A stretch of DNA of 64,000 nucleotides from Escherichia coli (GTDB taxonomy: Bacteria > Pseudomonadota > Gammaproteobacteria > Enterobacterales > Enterobacteriaceae), in NCBI RefSeq assembly GCF_003019035.1, contig NZ_CP027447.1. The stretch is one strand, 5' to 3'. A program made the position numbers and the translations under genes. Below are positions 1-5,173 of the stretch, in pieces. Position 1 is the first letter of the stretch; every line of letters begins with the position of its first letter. Under the pieces are notes generated by a model. That model did not search any database. It saw only the letters and a program-made list of their open reading frames with translations, and was not told where the DNA came from.

Positions 1-922
1 TCACCGTAACCATTGAACTGAACGGTACATTGGCGGCGGCATCCATCATTGCTTTACAGGCAGCCATCGACAGATTGAGGAAGAAGTGATCGTTACCGGT
101 GATAAATGCCACGACGCGCTGGATATGTTCCTGTGGAAGAGAGCAGGCCAGCAATGCCGGGAGCAGGCGCTTAATCAGCAAACCGGTAGCGGCAGCATTG
201 CGGTTATGAACTTCATCCCCCATATGCAGCGCCTGCGCCATTAATGGCTTGAGTTCCAGCTCGCCGTGTTGTGCGATTGCTGCTTTCATTGCCGGCGCCA
301 GTTCATCGCGCATCCAGGCCAGACGATTGAGAACTTCATCGTTATTGGCGCCAAAACGGAGAACCTTACCCAGACCTTCATTGAAATTGCTAAAAGTACG
401 ATGGCCGTTGGTTTTGTTTTCTACCACCCATAACGGCATCGACGGGCTGATGATGCCTGCCATTGGGCCAACCGCGTGATAATGATGACAAGGGGCAAGG
501 TCGATTTCGCCTGCGTTTATTTGGTTTTCAGCGTCTTGCTGGCTGGTGGCCCAACCTTCGTACAGCATGGCACCAATAATCGCCCCTTTTACCGGACCAC
601 ACATCTCTTCCCAGGCAATCGGCGGGCCAGAGTGCAAAATACGTTTTTGTTCAGCCATTGCTGGAATGGCCTCTTTAGCGAGCATGACATCCACCAGCAC
701 GGGCTGTGCTTCGAGATAACGTGTCATGGCGATTTGGTTGGCATTTTCTACCAGGGGATGACGTAGCAACGATGCCAGATCCAATCCAGCGTCAATATCG
801 CCTTGTGCTGGTGGCTGCCAGTTGAGTGCAATTGCGCTTCCCCCGGCATGTTGAATATTGTCAGCAAAACTGTGTAGTCCCGCGTTCACGACCTTCAAAG
901 GCTGATTAAATAAGGTATTCAT
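1..922 (-). CDS. DUF1116-family protein (YlbE/YahG-like), partial; 3-prime end lies beyond the window start
   Basis: Minus-strand ATG at 920-922 overlaps the FdrA-like stop (ATGA); manual translation runs to the window edge (MNTLFNQPLKVVNAGLHSFADNIQHAGG...). Not in the ORF track because no in-window stop. Family call from memory of the yahEFG/fdrA-ylbEF gene order. Confidence 0.55.
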   Translation of the reverse strand, partial: MNTLFNQPLKVVNAGLHSFADNIQHAGGSAIALNWQPPAQGDIDAGLDLASLLRHPLVENANQIAMTRYLEAQPVLVDVMLAKEAIPAMAEQKRILHSGPPIAWEEMCGPVKGAIIGAMLYEGWATSQQDAENQINAGEIDLAPCHHYHAVGPMAGIISPSMPLWVVENKTNGHRTFSNFNEGLGKVLRFGANNDEVLNRLAWMRDELAPAMKAAIAQHGELELKPLMAQALHMGDEVHNRNAAATGLLIKRLLPALLACSLPQEHIQRVVAFITGNDHFFLNLSMAACKAMMDAAANVPFSSMVTV

Positions 923-2478
923 GCGTTTAGCCCCTTTTTCTGCAACTGAGTCTGTGCAACGGTGCTGGCCCATAACGCCGCCTGTGCATTGCTGCTGGCG
1001 ATGATGACCCCTGCATTTTGTAGTGCGCTTATCTGCTGACTGCGTATTTGCGGATCAGCTTCCGTTCCGCAAACGTGCGCAATCAGCAACGGTGCGTTAT
1101 TCATGTCGATGTGTGAAAGTTGGTCCAGTAATTCGCTGGCAGGCGTCGTGGAAGCGCCATAACCAAGTACCAGGTCGAATAACACGACGGCAGTGTGTGA
1201 GTCGTTGAGTTCGTTGAGCAGACGTTGATTGCGCAGAGTCGGGTCGATCATTGGATGCGGTTTGCCACGGGTGAAATCATCGTCGCCCATATCGATCAAC
1301 GTGTGATCTTCGCTTTGCCAGATATTTGCCAGAGCACGATTACCCGCAACTGGCGTATTGGAGGCTGCGCTGAATCCCTTTTGTTGGCAGATAAGTTGCG
1401 CTTCGTAGCAGAAGGTTCCTCCGGCGAAAACACCGCGTATCGCCTGGCGATGGGCTGGCAGGCGCTGGCAGGCGTTTTGTAACATTGTGAGATCGTCGCA
1501 GGAAATTTCGGTCTCGATAGTCGGAATTGGTTGATCATTCAGTAACGCCACGGCGATATTTGCGGCGCTGGCAAGTGTGGTGGCGGCAGTGATATTGGGA
1601 CGTGCCAGATCATGCGGATTCGCACCGAGGAAATTCACCACCACGGGTTTTCCACAAGCCTCGGCACGCTCCAGAATAGTCCGGGCAACGATCGGTGAAG
1701 GCGGTTTTGAAATAAGCACAATCACGCGAGTTTCATCGTCTTGCGCCAGCGCATCTAAAGCGAAGAGCATCGATATTCCACCAATCTCTTCACTGAGATC
1801 ATGTCCGCCTGTTCCCAACGCCTGAGAAATACCCGCTCCGAGCTGGTCGATTCGGCAAGTCACTTCCTGTAGCCCGGTGCCTGACGCGCCAATAACACCA
1901 ATTGCTCCGCGTTTCACCACATTAGCGAAGCCTAACGGAATGCCGTTAACAATGGCGGTTCCACAGTCAGGTCCCATTACGATGCGCTGACGTTCTCGGG
2001 CAAGCGTTTTGATGGATTTTTCCTGCACGATACTGACGTTATCGCTGAACATCATCACGTTCATTCCGAGGTTTAACGCTTTAATTGCTTCGGCGGCGGC
2101 GTAGTCTCCCGGTACAGAAATGAGTGCCAGGTTGGCTTCGGGCTCGGCTTCCAGTGCCATTTCCAGGCTGACCTTTTCCGGTGATTTAATGCCACTATCC
2201 GTTTCATCATCGGGTTTGCTGGTCAGACGTTGCTGGGCCAGTACCAGTGCTTCATTGCAAATATCTTCTTCACCCATGACTGCAATCACTAAATCATTGG
2301 GACTGGCGTTGATTTCGTTACCCAGACCCGCATCGCGCAATTGTTCGAGATTATTGGGCGTTCCCATGACGACCGAGGCCTGTTGAATACCGGGCAACTT
2401 GCTGATTTGTGCGGAAATCTGCATCAGAGAAACTGAGTCCTGATAAAGATTACTGAAAACTTTATATTTAACTTTCAT
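919..2478 (-). CDS. FdrA/YahF-like protein (succinyl-CoA synthetase alpha-like CoA-binding family), 519 aa
   Basis: ORF track 519 aa; Gly-rich CoA-binding motifs (GVIGASGTG, MGPDCGT); length and neighbours match FdrA/YahF paralogs. Confidence 0.8.
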   Translation of the reverse strand: MKVKYKVFSNLYQDSVSLMQISAQISKLPGIQQASVVMGTPNNLEQLRDAGLGNEINASPNDLVIAVMGEEDICNEALVLAQQRLTSKPDDETDSGIKSPEKVSLEMALEAEPEANLALISVPGDYAAAEAIKALNLGMNVMMFSDNVSIVQEKSIKTLARERQRIVMGPDCGTAIVNGIPLGFANVVKRGAIGVIGASGTGLQEVTCRIDQLGAGISQALGTGGHDLSEEIGGISMLFALDALAQDDETRVIVLISKPPSPIVARTILERAEACGKPVVVNFLGANPHDLARPNITAATTLASAANIAVALLNDQPIPTIETEISCDDLTMLQNACQRLPAHRQAIRGVFAGGTFCYEAQLICQQKGFSAASNTPVAGNRALANIWQSEDHTLIDMGDDDFTRGKPHPMIDPTLRNQRLLNELNDSHTAVVLFDLVLGYGASTTPASELLDQLSHIDMNNAPLLIAHVCGTEADPQIRSQQISALQNAGVIIASSNAQAALWASTVAQTQLQKKGLNA

Positions 2479-2572
2479 GCTGTTACGCCTGTTTCATTCC
2501 GCCCGATAGCAAAATTCGGGCAAAGTATCCCCGTGTAGCCCCATAAACGGGCTACGGGAGAAAAGGTTGAAA

Positions 2573-3433
2573 TCAATTCATGGTGTTCAGGGTTCGAAAG
2601 CCATGCAGCATTCCTGCAAGGCAATCTACTCCTGACGTTGCGCCAAATTGCATGACCTGTTCTGCACAGGATGCGATTGTCATTGCCGATGCGCTCCCAA
2701 CCAGTTGTGCGAGTAACTGGCAAATCGGTTCTGAAAAATGTCCCTGAAGCGCACGCTCCAGATAATGACGACTGATATCCGTGGTGTTGTGCGCATGTTG
2801 ATCAATTGCCTGCTGCAACCGGTATTGATGATCGGCAAGTGGTGCAGGGAGTTGCCATAACCAGAGCGCTGCCAGATAGCCCAACAAATAGTCATCTCCA
2901 TCGGGCGTTAAGCCTTTACCAAAGCCGATCAGTTGTGGCACCTGGCGTTCCAGCGCATCTGGATGCTCCATAATCGCTAATCCCTGGTGCGTGAGACTAT
3001 CCGGCAGGTGCAATGTGCTTTGAACGTTATGTTCCAGACAAAATAAAAGCCGTTGCGATGCCATCGTTGGGTAGTGCTGGAAAACCAAAGGGAATGCCTC
3101 AAGTGTCAGCATTCCCCCCACAAATGGCGACTGCCAGAGCGTTGCGTTATCGAGCGCCACACAAAATCGAGGTGTCCGCAGTAAGCCTGGGGTTAACTGA
3201 ATGGGATCTGAATGGGCAATCTCTCTTCGCCAGTCCCAACATTCAGGTAGCCAGACTCTGGCAGCATCAGGGAGATTCAGATACGTTTGCGCACACAACA
3301 GAGTGATGAATGTTCCCGCGTCTGAATACAGATTTACCGCATGTTTAAAAGCGCTATGCAGACGTAAATCTTGCGTTTCATTCTGCGGGAAAATATATCC
3401 CAACGACGATGCGCAAAGCGTAACCTGTACCAT
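2573..3433 (-). CDS. DUF2877-like protein (YahE/YlbF-like), 286 aa
   Basis: ORF track 286 aa; sits immediately upstream of the FdrA-like gene as yahE does before yahF; GLTPDGDD motif. Family assignment from memory, unverified. Confidence 0.5.
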   Translation of the reverse strand: MVQVTLCASSLGYIFPQNETQDLRLHSAFKHAVNLYSDAGTFITLLCAQTYLNLPDAARVWLPECWDWRREIAHSDPIQLTPGLLRTPRFCVALDNATLWQSPFVGGMLTLEAFPLVFQHYPTMASQRLLFCLEHNVQSTLHLPDSLTHQGLAIMEHPDALERQVPQLIGFGKGLTPDGDDYLLGYLAALWLWQLPAPLADHQYRLQQAIDQHAHNTTDISRHYLERALQGHFSEPICQLLAQLVGSASAMTIASCAEQVMQFGATSGVDCLAGMLHGFRTLNTMN

Positions 3434-3438
3434 CGGCG

Positions 3439-4107
3439 TTAGCCTTCCAGACCTGCAATAATGGCTTTGGAATCAGTAACCCAACCGAAAATGGCACCTT
3501 GTGCTTTGATCATCTCGAGGGCGTATTTCTGGAATTCCGGGAAATAGGAGCCGACACAATCTTCCGGGATAATGCATTCATAGCCACGATCATTTGCTTC
3601 GCGCACGGTGGTGGTTACGCAAACTTCGGTTGTAACACCACAAACTATCAGCGTCTTGATACCGTGGTTTTGCAAAATCAGATGTAAGTCGGTTTGATAA
3701 AACGCGCCTTTGCCAGGCTTATCAATCACCGGTTCGCCTGCCACCGGGTACAGTTCAGGAATGATGTCATGACCTGCTTCACCTCTGACCAGAATGCGTC
3801 CCATCGGTCCTGGTTCACCAATAAAGGTTTTTCCGCCGCGCGTCAGTTTGGCTGGCGGGCAGTCGCTTAAGTCTGCACGATGGCCTTCACGAGTATGAAT
3901 AACCATAATTCCTTTTTGACGTGCGGCTGCCAGCACCTCTGTACATGGTGCGATAGCCGTGCGTACCAGTGAAACATCATTGCCCAGTGCCTCACCGAAG
4001 CCCCCTGCTTCGACAAAGTCACGCTGCATGTCGATCATGACCAGTGCAGTTGTGCGCGGATCAAAAGGTAATTCAAAGGGTTGAGCCTGAAAAATGGATT
4101 GCGTCAT
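3439..4107 (-). CDS. Isochorismatase-family cysteine hydrolase, 222 aa
   Basis: ORF track 222 aa; N-terminal LVMIDMQRDF motif typical of the isochorismatase/CSHase fold; 5-nt gap to the next gene suggests an operon. Confidence 0.75.
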   Translation of the reverse strand: MTQSIFQAQPFELPFDPRTTALVMIDMQRDFVEAGGFGEALGNDVSLVRTAIAPCTEVLAAARQKGIMVIHTREGHRADLSDCPPAKLTRGGKTFIGEPGPMGRILVRGEAGHDIIPELYPVAGEPVIDKPGKGAFYQTDLHLILQNHGIKTLIVCGVTTEVCVTTTVREANDRGYECIIPEDCVGSYFPEFQKYALEMIKAQGAIFGWVTDSKAIIAGLEG

Positions 4108-4363
4108 GGTAAATCTCCTGTCTGATGTTTAAACGATCCAGTTGTTCTGAGAACGAGTATTCAGGAGAAAAGCGGCACAAAACAGGAAAAAAGTTTGCCG
4201 CACAGCAACGAAATTTTTGCATTCAGCAGGTGGTGTGATGACGAATGTGAAGGGAGTCAAAGAGTGGCATACAGCAACAAATTTTTTGATGCTGTATGGT
4301 TTTGAGATTAAAAAAATCGTTGAAATTGTGTGAGCTTAATCATCAGATTTAGCGACTATGGCG

Positions 4364-5173
4364 TTACTTTTTAACACCATACTGTGTAAACCATTCCAAC
4401 ATTCGCTGCCAGCCGTCTTTCGCAGACTCGGCATGATAGCTCGGACGATAATCGGCGTTGAACGCATGCCCTGCATCCGGGTAGACGATAATCTCTGCTT
4501 TCGCGTTTGCTGCCCGCAGCGCCTGGCGCATCGTTTCCACGCTCTCTTGCGGAATGCTGTTATCCTGGCCGCCATATAAGCCGAGAACCGGCGCGTTAAG
4601 ATCGGTTGCGATATCAACAGGTTGTTTCGGTGAATTCAGCGACTTATCGCCCGTCAGTTTGCCGTACCACGCCACTGCGGCTTTTAGCTGTGGATTATGC
4701 GCGGCATACAGCCAGGTGATACGTCCACCCCAGCAGAATCCGGTGATCATTAAACGATGAACATCGCCGCCGTTGCGGGAAGCCCAACTGGCGACATGAT
4801 CGAGATCGGCCAGCACCTGCGAGTCAGGCACTTTTGCTACCAGACCGCTAAGCAACGTGGGGATATCGGCAAAATCATTCGGATCGCCTTCGCGGAAGTA
4901 AAGTTCAGGTGCGATAGCCAGATACCCCTCCAGCGCCAGACGGCGACAAATATCGCGGATATGTTCATGCACGCCAAAAATTTCCTGCACTACAATGACC
5001 ACTGGCAGTGGGCCATCGCTTTGCTTTGGTCTGGCATGGTAAGCAGGCATGTTATCCCCTTGTGAAGGGATAGAGGTGAAGCCCGCCACAATCGCGTCGT
5101 CCGGAGTCTGAACGATGGTCGAAGCGAGAGGCGATGCAGCAGGTGCAAATCCAGATTGTTGTGTTGTTGCCAT
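4364..5173 (-). CDS. ysgA: Dienelactone hydrolase family protein
   Basis: ORF track 291 aa begins at an upstream GTG; the internal Met (MATTQQSG...) follows an RBS (GGAGAA) and gives about 269 aa; GFCWGG nucleophile motif. Confidence 0.75.
   Translation of the reverse strand: MATTQQSGFAPAASPLASTIVQTPDDAIVAGFTSIPSQGDNMPAYHARPKQSDGPLPVVIVVQEIFGVHEHIRDICRRLALEGYLAIAPELYFREGDPNDFADIPTLLSGLVAKVPDSQVLADLDHVASWASRNGGDVHRLMITGFCWGGRITWLYAAHNPQLKAAVAWYGKLTGDKSLNSPKQPVDIATDLNAPVLGLYGGQDNSIPQESVETMRQALRAANAKAEIIVYPDAGHAFNADYRPSYHAESAKDGWQRMLEWFTQYGVKK

What the first reader, a model, noticed from the sequence alone, without database searches (positions are those of the whole stretch)
2479..2572. 94-nt intercistronic gap with a stem-loop between the DUF2877-like and FdrA-like genes
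The other junctions in this operon are 5 nt or overlapping, but this gap is 94 nt and contains an imperfect inverted repeat (gtagccc - cataaac - gggctac, about 2534-2555). It could be an RNA processing or stability element, or a site for differential expression of the downstream FdrA-like and DUF1116 genes.
Basis: seen in the sequence. Interest (0 to 1): 0.25.

Follow-up and report, generated by a model that had tools for sequence, protein, structure and literature searches.

The report
Conserved two-hairpin spacer before fdrA-like gene
The 94-base gap between two genes of an accessory E. coli nitrogen-catabolism operon holds two RNA hairpins set at a fixed distance before the next gene's start; relatives as distant as Serratia keep them through compensating mutations, so this is probably an undescribed piece of mRNA-level control, of modest interest.

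Summary
The gap (2479-2572, minus strand) holds a perfect 7-bp hairpin (HP1, 2535-2555).

The window is an accessory E. coli island (cysteine hydrolase, AllH-like, spacer, FdrA-like, AllG-like). In about 45 distinct lineages of this operon, a 73-145-nt spacer with at least two stem-loops is almost always present.

In Enterobacterales, a covariance model finds the element once per locus. Hits have E-values of 1e-24 to 3e-7 and occur only at this junction.
- 87% of cells pair, against 36-44% in slid controls.
- 13 of 20 pairs show compensatory changes.
- HP2 ends 20 nt before the AUG in 17 of 21 sequences.

Four-fold degenerate sites in the flanking genes are saturated, yet the spacer stays alignable among the closer relatives.

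It is not a terminator, sigma-70 promoter, dispersed repeat, small ORF or Rfam family. The paralogous junctions in K-12 (yahE-yahF, allFGHK) have no spacer.

My best reading is a cis-acting structured mRNA element that sets expression of the fdrA-like cistron and the genes after it, either by processing and stability or as a translational operator. The function is untested. It is a new member of a known kind.

The parts
3439..4107 (-). First gene of the operon: cysteine hydrolase / isochorismatase-family protein (222 aa).
   Evidence: ORF. RefSeq annotation of the identical locus. An isochorismatase homologue lies upstream in 68 of 71 spacer-bearing loci that have enough flank.
2573..3433 (-). 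AllH-like (DUF2877, PF11392) gene, 286 aa. Its stop codon TGA is at 2573-2575.
2479..2572 (-). 94-nt untranslated intercistronic spacer. This is the finding.
   Evidence: The covariance-model hit at window 2476-2572 (-) scores 85 bits, E = 4e-23, and is the only hit in the 64-kb window.
2529..2561 (-). HP1. The inner stem-loop GUAGCCC-GUUUAUG-GGGCUAC is at 2535-2555. Four outer pairs (U12-G44, C13-G43, U14-G42, C15-G41 in spacer numbering) lie across a small internal loop.
   Evidence: Fold. 82.7% of cells pair; 9 of 12 pairs show compensatory changes in 21 sequences.
2524..2528 (-). 5-nt linker between HP1 and HP2 (AUACU here; AUCGC or AUGCU in relatives).
   Evidence: Its length is 5 nt in all 21 type-A sequences.
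2499..2523 (-). HP2: UUGCCCGA-AUUUUGCUA-UCGGGCGG. The core GCCCGA/UCGGGC is at 2501-2521.
   Evidence: Fold. 93.5% of cells pair and 4 of 8 pairs show compensatory changes. Two C-G pairs are invariant. The loop is 9 nt in 17 of 21 sequences.
2479..2498 (-). Unpaired A-rich tail AAUGAAACAGGCGUAACAGC. It carries the Shine-Dalgarno-like AGG at 2488-2490.
   Evidence: Conserved ACAGG and AUAAC motifs. The HP2-to-AUG distance is 20 nt in 17 of 21 sequences, range 19-22.
919..2478 (-). FdrA/AllF-like gene (519 aa). It overlaps the AllG-like (DUF1116) gene by 4 nt at 919-922.
   Evidence: The N-terminus aligns from residue 1 in nearly all orthologues.

Best explanation
The spacer is a functional, sense-strand structured segment of the operon mRNA. 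Its layout is HP1, a 5-nt linker, HP2, then a 20-nt unpaired ribosome-binding tail. It acts in cis to set the expression of the fdrA-like cistron, and of the allG-like and arcC genes behind it, independently of the two upstream cistrons.

The mechanism I commit to is segmental mRNA processing and stabilisation. An endonuclease (RNase E in Enterobacterales) cuts the single-stranded stretch at or next to the linker. HP1 is then left as a 3' cap on the hydrolase-allH segment. HP2 is left as a 5' cap 20 nt ahead of the fdrA AUG. The two halves then decay at different rates, and fdrA is translated from its own open Shine-Dalgarno site rather than by coupling.

Shown here: the structure, its conservation and covariation, its fixed geometry relative to the AUG, and the absence of promoter, terminator, repeat and coding signals.

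Inferred: co-transcription, the cleavage, and the effect on stability.

I put about 0.8 on the spacer being a functional RNA structure of some kind. The confidence given for this explanation is for the specific processing and stability mechanism.
For: Spacer distribution:
- A spacer of 73-145 nt is present at this junction in nearly all of about 45 distinct lineages. These include Escherichia, Citrobacter, Salmonella, Buttiauxella, Edwardsiella, Serratia, Limnobaculum, Caballeronia and metagenomes.
- 41 of 43 unique spacers have at least 2 stem-loops of at least 5 bp.

Covariance models:
- The type-A models hit once per locus, only at this junction, with E from 1e-24 to 3e-7.

Covariation:
- 87.0% of cells pair, against 36-44% for slid partners.
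- 13 of 20 pairs and 69 cells carry double changes.
- The covariation score is 0.462 against 0.246 +/- 0.018 for shuffles (0 of 500 reach it).
- An independent Burkholderiales-type set has HP1 95% paired with 4 compensatory pairs.

Sequence conservation:
- Four-fold degenerate sites of the flanking genes are saturated (identity 0.22-0.47).
- Spacer identity is 0.53-0.68 for all but the two most distant E. coli comparisons, against 0.47-0.48 for shuffled sequences.

Geometry:
- The linker is always 5 nt and the HP2-to-AUG distance is 19-22 nt.
- The HP1 loop varies from 3 to 21 nt, and the stop-to-HP1 distance also varies. This is RNA-like behaviour, not that of a fixed dimeric DNA site.

Strand:
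- Internal G.U pairs outnumber A.C pairs 14 to 7, and 8 to 2 in HP2.

Signals that are absent:
- There is no U-tract terminator or sigma-70 promoter in the window.
- No promoter-like site is shared by 29 lineages within 260 nt upstream of the AUG.

The paralogous junctions yahE-yahF (11-nt overlap) and allFGHK (9-10 nt) have no spacer, so the spacer is a specific acquired feature.
Against: - There are no transcript-end, half-life or RNase data of any kind, so cleavage is pure inference.
- Primary sequence is conserved in the linker, in two invariant C-G pairs of HP2, and between the Shine-Dalgarno site and the AUG. That is more than a generic stabiliser hairpin needs, and it fits a specific binding partner better.
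- Thermodynamic excess is only modest. Three of 21 lineages have z above 0.
- Whole-spacer MFE does not favour sense over antisense: the mean difference is +0.46 kcal/mol and sense is the more stable strand in 15 of 29.
- Some E. coli lineages carry G33C, which breaks one apical HP1 pair.
- One relative (L087) has no spacer at all.
- The alignments used for counting were fitted by the model, so they lean towards the structure.
Confidence: 0.37

Rival explanations
1. Translational operator for a trans-acting factor. A protein (possibly a subunit of the AllF/G/H-like enzyme or a pathway regulator) or a small RNA recognises HP2, the linker and the conserved tail. By doing so it blocks or aids 30S binding at the fdrA-like start, tuning subunit ratios or responding to substrate.
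For: - The geometry is fixed: HP2 ends 20 nt before the AUG, the linker is 5 nt, and the HP2 loop is 9 nt in 17 of 21 sequences.
- There are invariant stem pairs and conserved unpaired motifs (CGG, UCGCU, ACAGG, AUAAC).
- The Burkholderiales-type spacer has 28 invariant columns, including a UAACGAU loop 10 nt before the AUG.
- From my own knowledge, the layout of two hairpins, a linker and a ribosome-binding site resembles the thrS operator.
Against: - No candidate binder has been identified.
- Both hairpin loops vary in sequence.
- The Shine-Dalgarno site is not sequestered in type A.
- There is no Rfam match.
Confidence: 0.25
2. Passive structural insulator or standby platform. The hairpins fold the untranslated spacer locally, so it cannot pair with the ribosome-binding site. 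They may also keep Rho from loading. This gives efficient, uncoupled initiation at fdrA without any cleavage or binding partner.
For: - The Shine-Dalgarno site and AUG lie in a conserved unpaired A-rich tail directly 3' of HP2.
- Native spacers give slightly higher predicted ribosome-binding-site accessibility than shuffled cores in 11 of 15 lineages.
Against: - The accessibility gain is not significant (mean z +0.35).
- A passive role does not explain the conserved primary sequence or the fixed linker length.
- Paralogous operons manage with overlapping genes.
Confidence: 0.15
3. No dedicated function. The hairpins are incidental or relic palindromes in a spacer retained only because it carries the fdrA ribosome-binding site.
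For: - z-scores are modest and 3 of 21 are positive.
- An apical HP1 pair is broken in some E. coli.
- L087 lacks the spacer.
Against: - Compensatory changes occur in 13 of 20 pairs.
- Pairing is 87% against about 40% in slid controls.
- The spacer is conserved where synonymous sites are saturated.
- It is present in about 45 lineages.
Confidence: 0.1
4. DNA-level element. The palindromes are operator sites for a transcription factor, for example the LysR-type regulator of the island, controlling an internal promoter for fdrA.
For: - HP2 is a 21-bp dyad with a fixed 9-bp centre in most sequences.
- An LTTR gene belongs to the island.
- Whole-spacer MFE does not discriminate the strands.
Against: - No sigma-70-like promoter was found in the window or shared among 29 lineages.
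- Only 20 nt separate HP2 from the AUG, which leaves no room for a -10 element, a leader and a Shine-Dalgarno site.
- HP1 arm spacing varies from 3 to 21 nt.
- G.U pairs are tolerated in HP2, 8 against 2 A.C.
Confidence: 0.05
5. Internal attenuator or intrinsic terminator causing polarity between allH and fdrA.
For: GC-rich hairpins lie between cistrons. A short UUU follows HP1 after 5-6 nt.
Against: - No hairpin is followed directly by a U-run. The terminator scan finds nothing in the gap.
- No conserved alternative (antiterminator) pairing was seen across lineages.
Confidence: 0.03

Closest known systems
Intercistronic or 5'-leader mRNA stabiliser hairpins (ompA 5' UTR hp1-ss1-hp2-ss2; pap, puf and malEFG intercistronic stem-loops). 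Comparison from my own knowledge.
   Same: Stable stem-loops in an untranslated stretch of a polycistronic mRNA. They are separated by short single-stranded segments, and the last hairpin lies just upstream of an open ribosome-binding site. The expected effect is differential expression of operon segments.
   Different: No transcript ends or half-lives are known here. The element is single-copy, unlike the REP elements of malEFG. Its linker, stems and tail carry conserved primary sequence across genera, which is unusual for a pure stabiliser.
thrS-type translational operators (two hairpins plus a linker upstream of the Shine-Dalgarno site, bound by the encoded protein). Comparison from my own knowledge.
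   Same: The layout is two hairpins, a single-stranded linker and a ribosome-binding site. The distance to the start codon is fixed, and stem and linker nucleotides are conserved.
   Different: The loops are not conserved and no tRNA-like feature is present. No binding protein is known. The element sits inside an operon rather than at its 5' end.
Paralogous DUF2877-FdrA junctions in E. coli K-12 (yahE-yahF; allF-allG-allH-allK).
   Same: The same three protein families plus a carbamate kinase. AllFGH has been shown to be oxamate carbamoyltransferase (PMC11326118).
   Different: yahE and yahF overlap by 11 nt, and the allFGHK junctions are 9-10 nt gaps or a 4-nt overlap. There is no spacer and no hairpins. 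In allFGHK the gene order is also different.
Tandem-hairpin riboswitches (guanidine-II / mini-ykkC) and lambda nut boxA-boxB sites. Comparison from my own knowledge.
   Same: Two small hairpins joined by a linker (guanidine-II). A CGCU-rich single strand next to a GCCC...GGGC hairpin (nut).
   Different: - There are no ACGR loops; the loops here are GUUUAUG and AAUUUUGCUA, and they vary.
- The boxA consensus GCUCUUUAACAA matches 5 of 12 positions.
- The HP2 loop is 9 nt, not a GNRA-like pentaloop.
- There are no Rfam hits.

Membership tests
Intrinsic (Rho-independent) terminator / attenuator | GC-rich hairpin followed immediately by a U-run | tested here: not met
   The terminator scan finds no site in 2479-2572 on either strand. 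After HP1 comes ACGGGGAUACUUUG, and after HP2 comes AAUGAAAC.
REP/BIME and other dispersed extragenic palindromes | Many copies dispersed in the genome | tested here: not met
   The 94-nt sequence occurs at a median of 1 place per genome. The maximum is 3 (1501 chromosomal and 124 plasmid places in all), always at this junction.
Any curated Rfam 15 family (riboswitches, leaders, sRNAs) | Covariance-model score at or above the family's gathering threshold | tested here: not met
   There are no hits at gathering score in 20 loci. Within the gap, only noise appears at E >= 1 (snoRNA, miRNA and CRISPR models far below threshold).
Guanidine-II (mini-ykkC) tandem-hairpin riboswitch | Two hairpins, each capped by a conserved ACGR tetraloop | tested here: not met
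   The loops are 7 and 9 nt here (3-21 and 4-11 nt across relatives), variable in sequence, with no ACGR.
Intercistronic mRNA processing / stabiliser element | Stable stem-loop(s) on the sense strand of an untranslated intercistronic region, conserved as structure | tested here: met
   Fold z = -2.56. 87% of cells pair and 13 of 20 pairs are compensatory. At least 2 stem-loops occur in 41 of 43 spacers.
Intercistronic mRNA processing / stabiliser element | Transcript 5'/3' ends at the hairpins and different half-lives of the flanking segments | not testable with these tools
   No transcriptome or end-mapping data are available for island-positive strains.
Translational operator / protein- or sRNA-bound leader | Structured element at a fixed distance from the Shine-Dalgarno site and AUG, with conserved recognition nucleotides | tested here: met
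   HP2-to-AUG distance is 20 nt in 17 of 21 sequences. The linker is always 5 nt. C-G pairs are invariant, and the ACAGG and AUAAC motifs are conserved.
Translational operator / protein- or sRNA-bound leader | Demonstrated binding partner and regulatory response | not testable with these tools
Transcription-factor operator with internal promoter | Dyad with fixed half-site spacing next to a promoter | tested here: not met
   HP1 arm spacing varies from 3 to 21 nt. HP2 spacing is fixed in 17 of 21 sequences. No promoter-like site was found in the window or shared among 29 lineages.
Small protein-coding gene or read-through extension | Conserved ORF or conserved reading-frame relation across the spacer | tested here: not met
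   A 16-codon ORF exists only in Escherichia. Spacer lengths of 89, 90, 94, 96, 97, 100, 108... give no constant frame.

The most novel reading that the evidence does not exclude
The spacer is a previously undescribed translational operator. HP2, the invariant 5-nt-spaced linker and the conserved tail would be bound by a component of the AllF/G/H-like carbamoyltransferase, or by a dedicated RNA-binding regulator or sRNA. This would autoregulate the ratio of the AllH-like subunit to the FdrA/AllG-like subunits, or gate the ATP-yielding half of the pathway. That would make it a new cis-regulatory RNA class spanning Enterobacterales, possibly with a counterpart in Burkholderiales.
Probability: 0.18. 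Interest if true: 0.6.

Novelty: new member of a known kind. Interest (0 to 1): 0.4.

Why it matters
AllFGH-type enzymes were identified as oxamate carbamoyltransferase only in 2024 (PMC11326118). The paralogous operon studied here is uncharacterised. It is an accessory island in about 28% of complete E. coli genomes and is also carried on ColV-type virulence plasmids.

A structured spacer that has been kept while synonymous sites saturated shows that selection acts on how the fdrA-like half of the operon is expressed relative to the allH-like half. It gives a concrete, mutable handle for studying subunit balancing or conditional expression in this enzyme family: two hairpins, a 5-nt linker and a 20-nt tail. 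It also adds a candidate motif that Rfam lacks.

If it proves to be only a stabiliser hairpin pair, it is an ordinary though well-conserved example of a known mechanism.

Tried and rejected
1. Rfam. I searched at E <= 10 on the window region, the gap alone and a Caballeronia spacer, and at gathering threshold on 20 loci. Only noise came back.
2. Terminator and sigma-70 promoter scans of 2000-4600 found nothing in the gap. My own relaxed scan (8 of 12 matches) of the 260 nt upstream of the AUG in 29 lineages found no shared site. The one good match, in Edwardsiella, would start transcription inside the coding region.
3. Sigma-54. TTGCCCGAATTTTGCT resembles TGGCACG-N4-TTGC but lacks the essential GG, and the -12 GC is not conserved in relatives. 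I rejected it by eye.
4. Dispersed repeat or MITE. The element is single-copy.
5. Small ORF. It is Escherichia-only.
6. Stop-codon read-through or frameshift fusion. There is no constant frame relation.
7. boxA/boxB nut-like site and guanidine-II riboswitch. The consensus features are not met (by eye).
8. fourU or anti-Shine-Dalgarno thermometer. In E. coli the 5' CCUUUUCUCC pairs with the tail in the MFE, but that outer helix is absent in Citrobacter, Buttiauxella and others.
9. Alternative 2:3 pairing (attenuator). A 7-nt complement between the HP1 3' arm and the HP2 5' arm exists in Serratia only.
10. Ribosome-binding-site accessibility test of the insulator idea. The mean z is +0.35, which is inconclusive.
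11. Sense versus antisense MFE to assign the strand. There is no difference. The G.U:A.C count of 51:10 shrinks to 14:7 once terminal U.G columns are removed.
12. One family across classes. The type-A model R2 does not detect Burkholderiales-type spacers. The type-B model R3 hits type-A spacers only at noise level (E 0.5-9), although 4 such hits fall exactly on the junction. Homology between the two types is therefore not shown.
13. MAFFT Q-INS-i structural alignment was unavailable in the sandbox.
14. Literature. No paper found mentions this spacer.

Full report
**What is in the window**

The finding lies on the minus strand of an E. coli accessory island. The first 6 kb of the window are 100% identical to strain SCU-301. 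Only 1497 of 5426 complete E. coli genomes carry at least 80% of it.

RefSeq annotation of the identical locus gives the following order, all on one strand between ysgA/udp and metE:
- cysteine hydrolase (isochorismatase family)
- DUF2877 / 'AllH family'
- FdrA
- DUF1116 / 'YlbE family'
- carbamate kinase
- an allophanate-hydrolase-related protein
- a cytosine permease
- a LysR-type regulator

In window coordinates the genes are:
- hydrolase gene, 3439-4107
- AllH-like gene, 2573-3433
- FdrA-like gene, 919-2478
- AllG-like gene, overlapping FdrA-like at 919-922

[quoted passage not shown] The island itself is discussed only as a putative pyrimidine or nitrogen region, 'GR 29' of strain BEN2908 (PMC12928451).

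**Checking the observation**

The gap is exactly 2479-2572, 94 nt. The ORF listing reports the longest ORFs, so no upstream start can close it. Both flanking proteins are full length compared with YahE (287 aa) and YahF (515 aa).

On the transcript the gap reads UUUCAACCUUUUCUCCCGUAGCCCGUUUAUGGGGCUACACGGGGAUACUUUGCCCGAAUUUUGCUAUCGGGCGGAAUGAAACAGGCGUAACAGC.

A 20-nt A-rich tail carrying an AGG Shine-Dalgarno site leads to the AUG.

The RNA folds at -32.9 kcal/mol with z = -2.56; 2 of 200 shuffles fold as well.

**Simple explanations that were excluded**

- No Rfam family matches.
- There is no hairpin-plus-U-run and no sigma-70-like promoter in the gap.
- The sequence is single-copy per genome, so it is not a REP-type repeat.
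- A 16-codon ORF starting in the HP1 loop exists only in Escherichia.
- Spacer lengths in relatives give no constant reading-frame relation, which excludes read-through or frameshift fusion.
- The K-12 paralogues have no spacer. yahE and yahF overlap by 11 nt, and the allFGHK junctions are 9-10 nt gaps or a 4-nt overlap.

**Conservation in related operons**

Orthologous operons came from three sources:
- a scan of one genome per species
- eight exact-protein look-ups spanning 62% down to 40% AllH identity
- a protein-based scan of metagenome contigs, which is unbiased with respect to the RNA

In 82 loci with both genes (43 unique spacers, about 45 lineages), the AllH-to-FdrA spacer is 73-145 nt almost without exception. 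These include Citrobacter, Salmonella, Buttiauxella, Edwardsiella, Serratia, Limnobaculum and Caballeronia. A 36%-identical plasmid paralogue from Klebsiella, Citrobacter and Enterobacter also has one.

There are two exceptions. L087 has about 35 nt and no hairpin. In L086 the AllH frame runs through a spacer of about 120 nt.

An isochorismatase gene precedes AllH in 68 of 71 loci with enough flank. 41 of 43 unique spacers contain at least two stem-loops of at least 5 bp.

Folding z-scores are negative in 18 of 21 lineages, with a mean of -1.5. The thermodynamic excess is therefore real but modest.

**Structure and covariation**

Among Enterobacterales ('type A') the spacers align by sequence. 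The layout is HP1, then CGGGAUCGC-UUU, then HP2 (GCCYGA...UCRGGC), then an A-rich tail with ACAGG and AUAAC, then the AUG.

- A covariance model built from 11 sequences (R1) and a second built from its hits (R2) find the element once per locus, only at this junction.
- Scores run from 89 to 34 bits (E from 2e-24 to 3e-7), reaching Serratia and Limnobaculum. Nothing else is found in the 64-kb window or in the K-12 paralogous loci.
- On the 21 distinct sequences, 87.0% of cells form standard pairs. With the 3' partners slid by 1-3 columns the figure is 36-44%.
- 13 of 20 pairs and 69 cells carry changes on both sides.
- The covariation score is 0.462, against 0.246 +/- 0.018 for shuffles (0 of 500 reach it) (the earlier 18-sequence alignment is).

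The alignment was fitted by the model, which favours the structure. However, the slid controls keep that bias and still fall far short.

A second, independent group ('type B': Caballeronia plus soil and bog metagenomes) aligns by MAFFT alone at 74% column identity.
- Its HP1 has an invariant UGGC/GCCA outer stem. It is 95% paired, with four compensatory pairs.
- A further small hairpin with an invariant UAACGAU loop sits 10 nt before the AUG.
- Its HP2 is not supported (61% paired).

Neither model detects the other type significantly. The two types share position and architecture, but common ancestry is not shown.

**Selection and geometry**

Between E. coli and its relatives, four-fold degenerate sites of the flanking genes are saturated (identity 0.22-0.47). 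Spacer identity is 0.53-0.68 for all but the two most distant E. coli comparisons, against 0.47-0.48 +/- 0.03 for shuffled spacers. The signal is lost by Serratia at the plain-sequence level.

The geometry is strikingly fixed on the 3' side:
- the HP1-HP2 linker is 5 nt in all 21 type-A sequences
- the HP2 loop is 9 nt in 17 of 21
- HP2 ends 20 nt before the AUG in 17 of 21 (range 19-22)

In contrast, the HP1 loop ranges from 3 to 21 nt, and the distance from the AllH stop to HP1 varies. The element therefore belongs to the fdrA-like start rather than to the allH-like end.

Variable arm spacing, G.U tolerance (internal pairs G.U:A.C = 14:7, and 8:2 in HP2), the lack of any shared promoter and the lack of room for one all argue for RNA rather than a DNA operator. 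Whole-spacer MFE does not distinguish the strands, so the strand assignment rests mainly on context.

**Mechanism**

Sequence alone cannot decide the mechanism. I commit to segmental processing and stabilisation at about 0.37. Two hairpins separated by a short single strand, followed by an open ribosome-binding site, is the classical arrangement. It leaves a 3'-capped upstream segment and a 5'-capped downstream segment after endonucleolytic cleavage, and it makes translation of fdrA independent of allH.

The main rival, at about 0.25, is a translational operator for a protein or sRNA. It is favoured by the conserved primary sequence in the linker, in the stem pairs and between the Shine-Dalgarno site and the AUG, and by the exact spacing.

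The remaining rivals:
- A passive insulator or standby role (0.15) has only a non-significant accessibility signal (mean z +0.35).
- Incidental structure (0.10) is hard to square with the covariation.
- A DNA operator (0.05) lacks its defining features.
- An attenuator (0.03) also lacks its defining features.

As context only: AlphaFold-based modelling in PMC11326118 treats AllF and AllG as dimers and AllH as a monomer. This would give a reason for unequal expression, but it is a prediction for the paralogous enzyme.

**Verdict**

The element is a new member of a known kind, namely structured intercistronic or leader mRNA elements, and it is absent from Rfam. Interest is moderate (0.4).

Noticed in passing
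window 1-4363 (island) and loci L001, L016: The whole operon is an accessory island between metE and ysgA/udp. It is present in about 28% of complete E. coli genomes. A copy with 95.8% amino-acid identity sits on at least 80 mostly conjugative plasmids; the one inspected is the IncF ColV plasmid APEC p1ColV5155. At least two Klebsiella pneumoniae plasmids carry it as well.
   Followed up: partly
L015 5001-9915 (Klebsiella plasmid pHS08204) and L089/L090: A paralogous DUF2877-fdrA-DUF1116-arcC cluster (36% identity) lies next to a ring-opening amidohydrolase and an NCS2 symporter on plasmids of Klebsiella, Citrobacter, Enterobacter, Raoultella and Leclercia. It also has a 95-nt DUF2877-fdrA spacer with hairpins and a GAAUGAACAGGUA tail. 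The type-A model does not detect it.
   Followed up: partly
window 919-3433 versus loci L004-L097: Across the same loci, the first 200 residues of the FdrA-like protein are far more conserved (about 60-83% amino-acid identity outside E. coli) than the AllH-like protein (35-63%).
   Followed up: no
L087 3340-3420; L086 2300-2450: One bog-metagenome relative (L087) has no structured spacer; only about 35 nt separate the genes. In another relative (L086) the AllH frame reads through a spacer of about 120 nt that still contains a GAAUGAAACAGG motif. This could be a lost stop codon or an assembly error.
   Followed up: partly
window 2494-2544 (-), spacer nt 29-79: A 16-codon ORF (MGLHGDTLPEFCYRAE) starts at the AUG in the HP1 loop. 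It stays open, with four substitutions, in a divergent E. coli (L004). It is absent from Citrobacter, Salmonella and all other genera.
   Followed up: yes
window 4197-4209 (-) and 4108-4363: A terminator-like hairpin with a T-run lies just downstream of ysgA. The operon therefore probably has its own promoter in the roughly 90 nt before the hydrolase gene, but no sigma-70 consensus was found there. A weak Mu-gpT-DE Rfam match at 4105-4166 (E = 0.26, 19.8 bits against a 49-bit threshold) is noise.
   Followed up: no
L007 1-1702; L008 and L010 1-2057: In Salmonella the operon is flanked by integrase/transposase (rve) genes. In Buttiauxella and a related metagenome contig it sits in the same rmuC-udp-ysgA neighbourhood as in E. 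coli. This suggests both vertical retention and mobility.
   Followed up: no
L009 3930-3958 (Edwardsiella tarda): The conserved AUAAC motif between the Shine-Dalgarno site and the AUG reads UAUAAU here. Together with the HP2 3' arm it forms a 9-of-12 sigma-70 match (TTTAGG-16-TATAAT) ending 3 nt before the AUG. A transcription start from it would fall inside the coding region, so this is probably a coincidence.
   Followed up: partly
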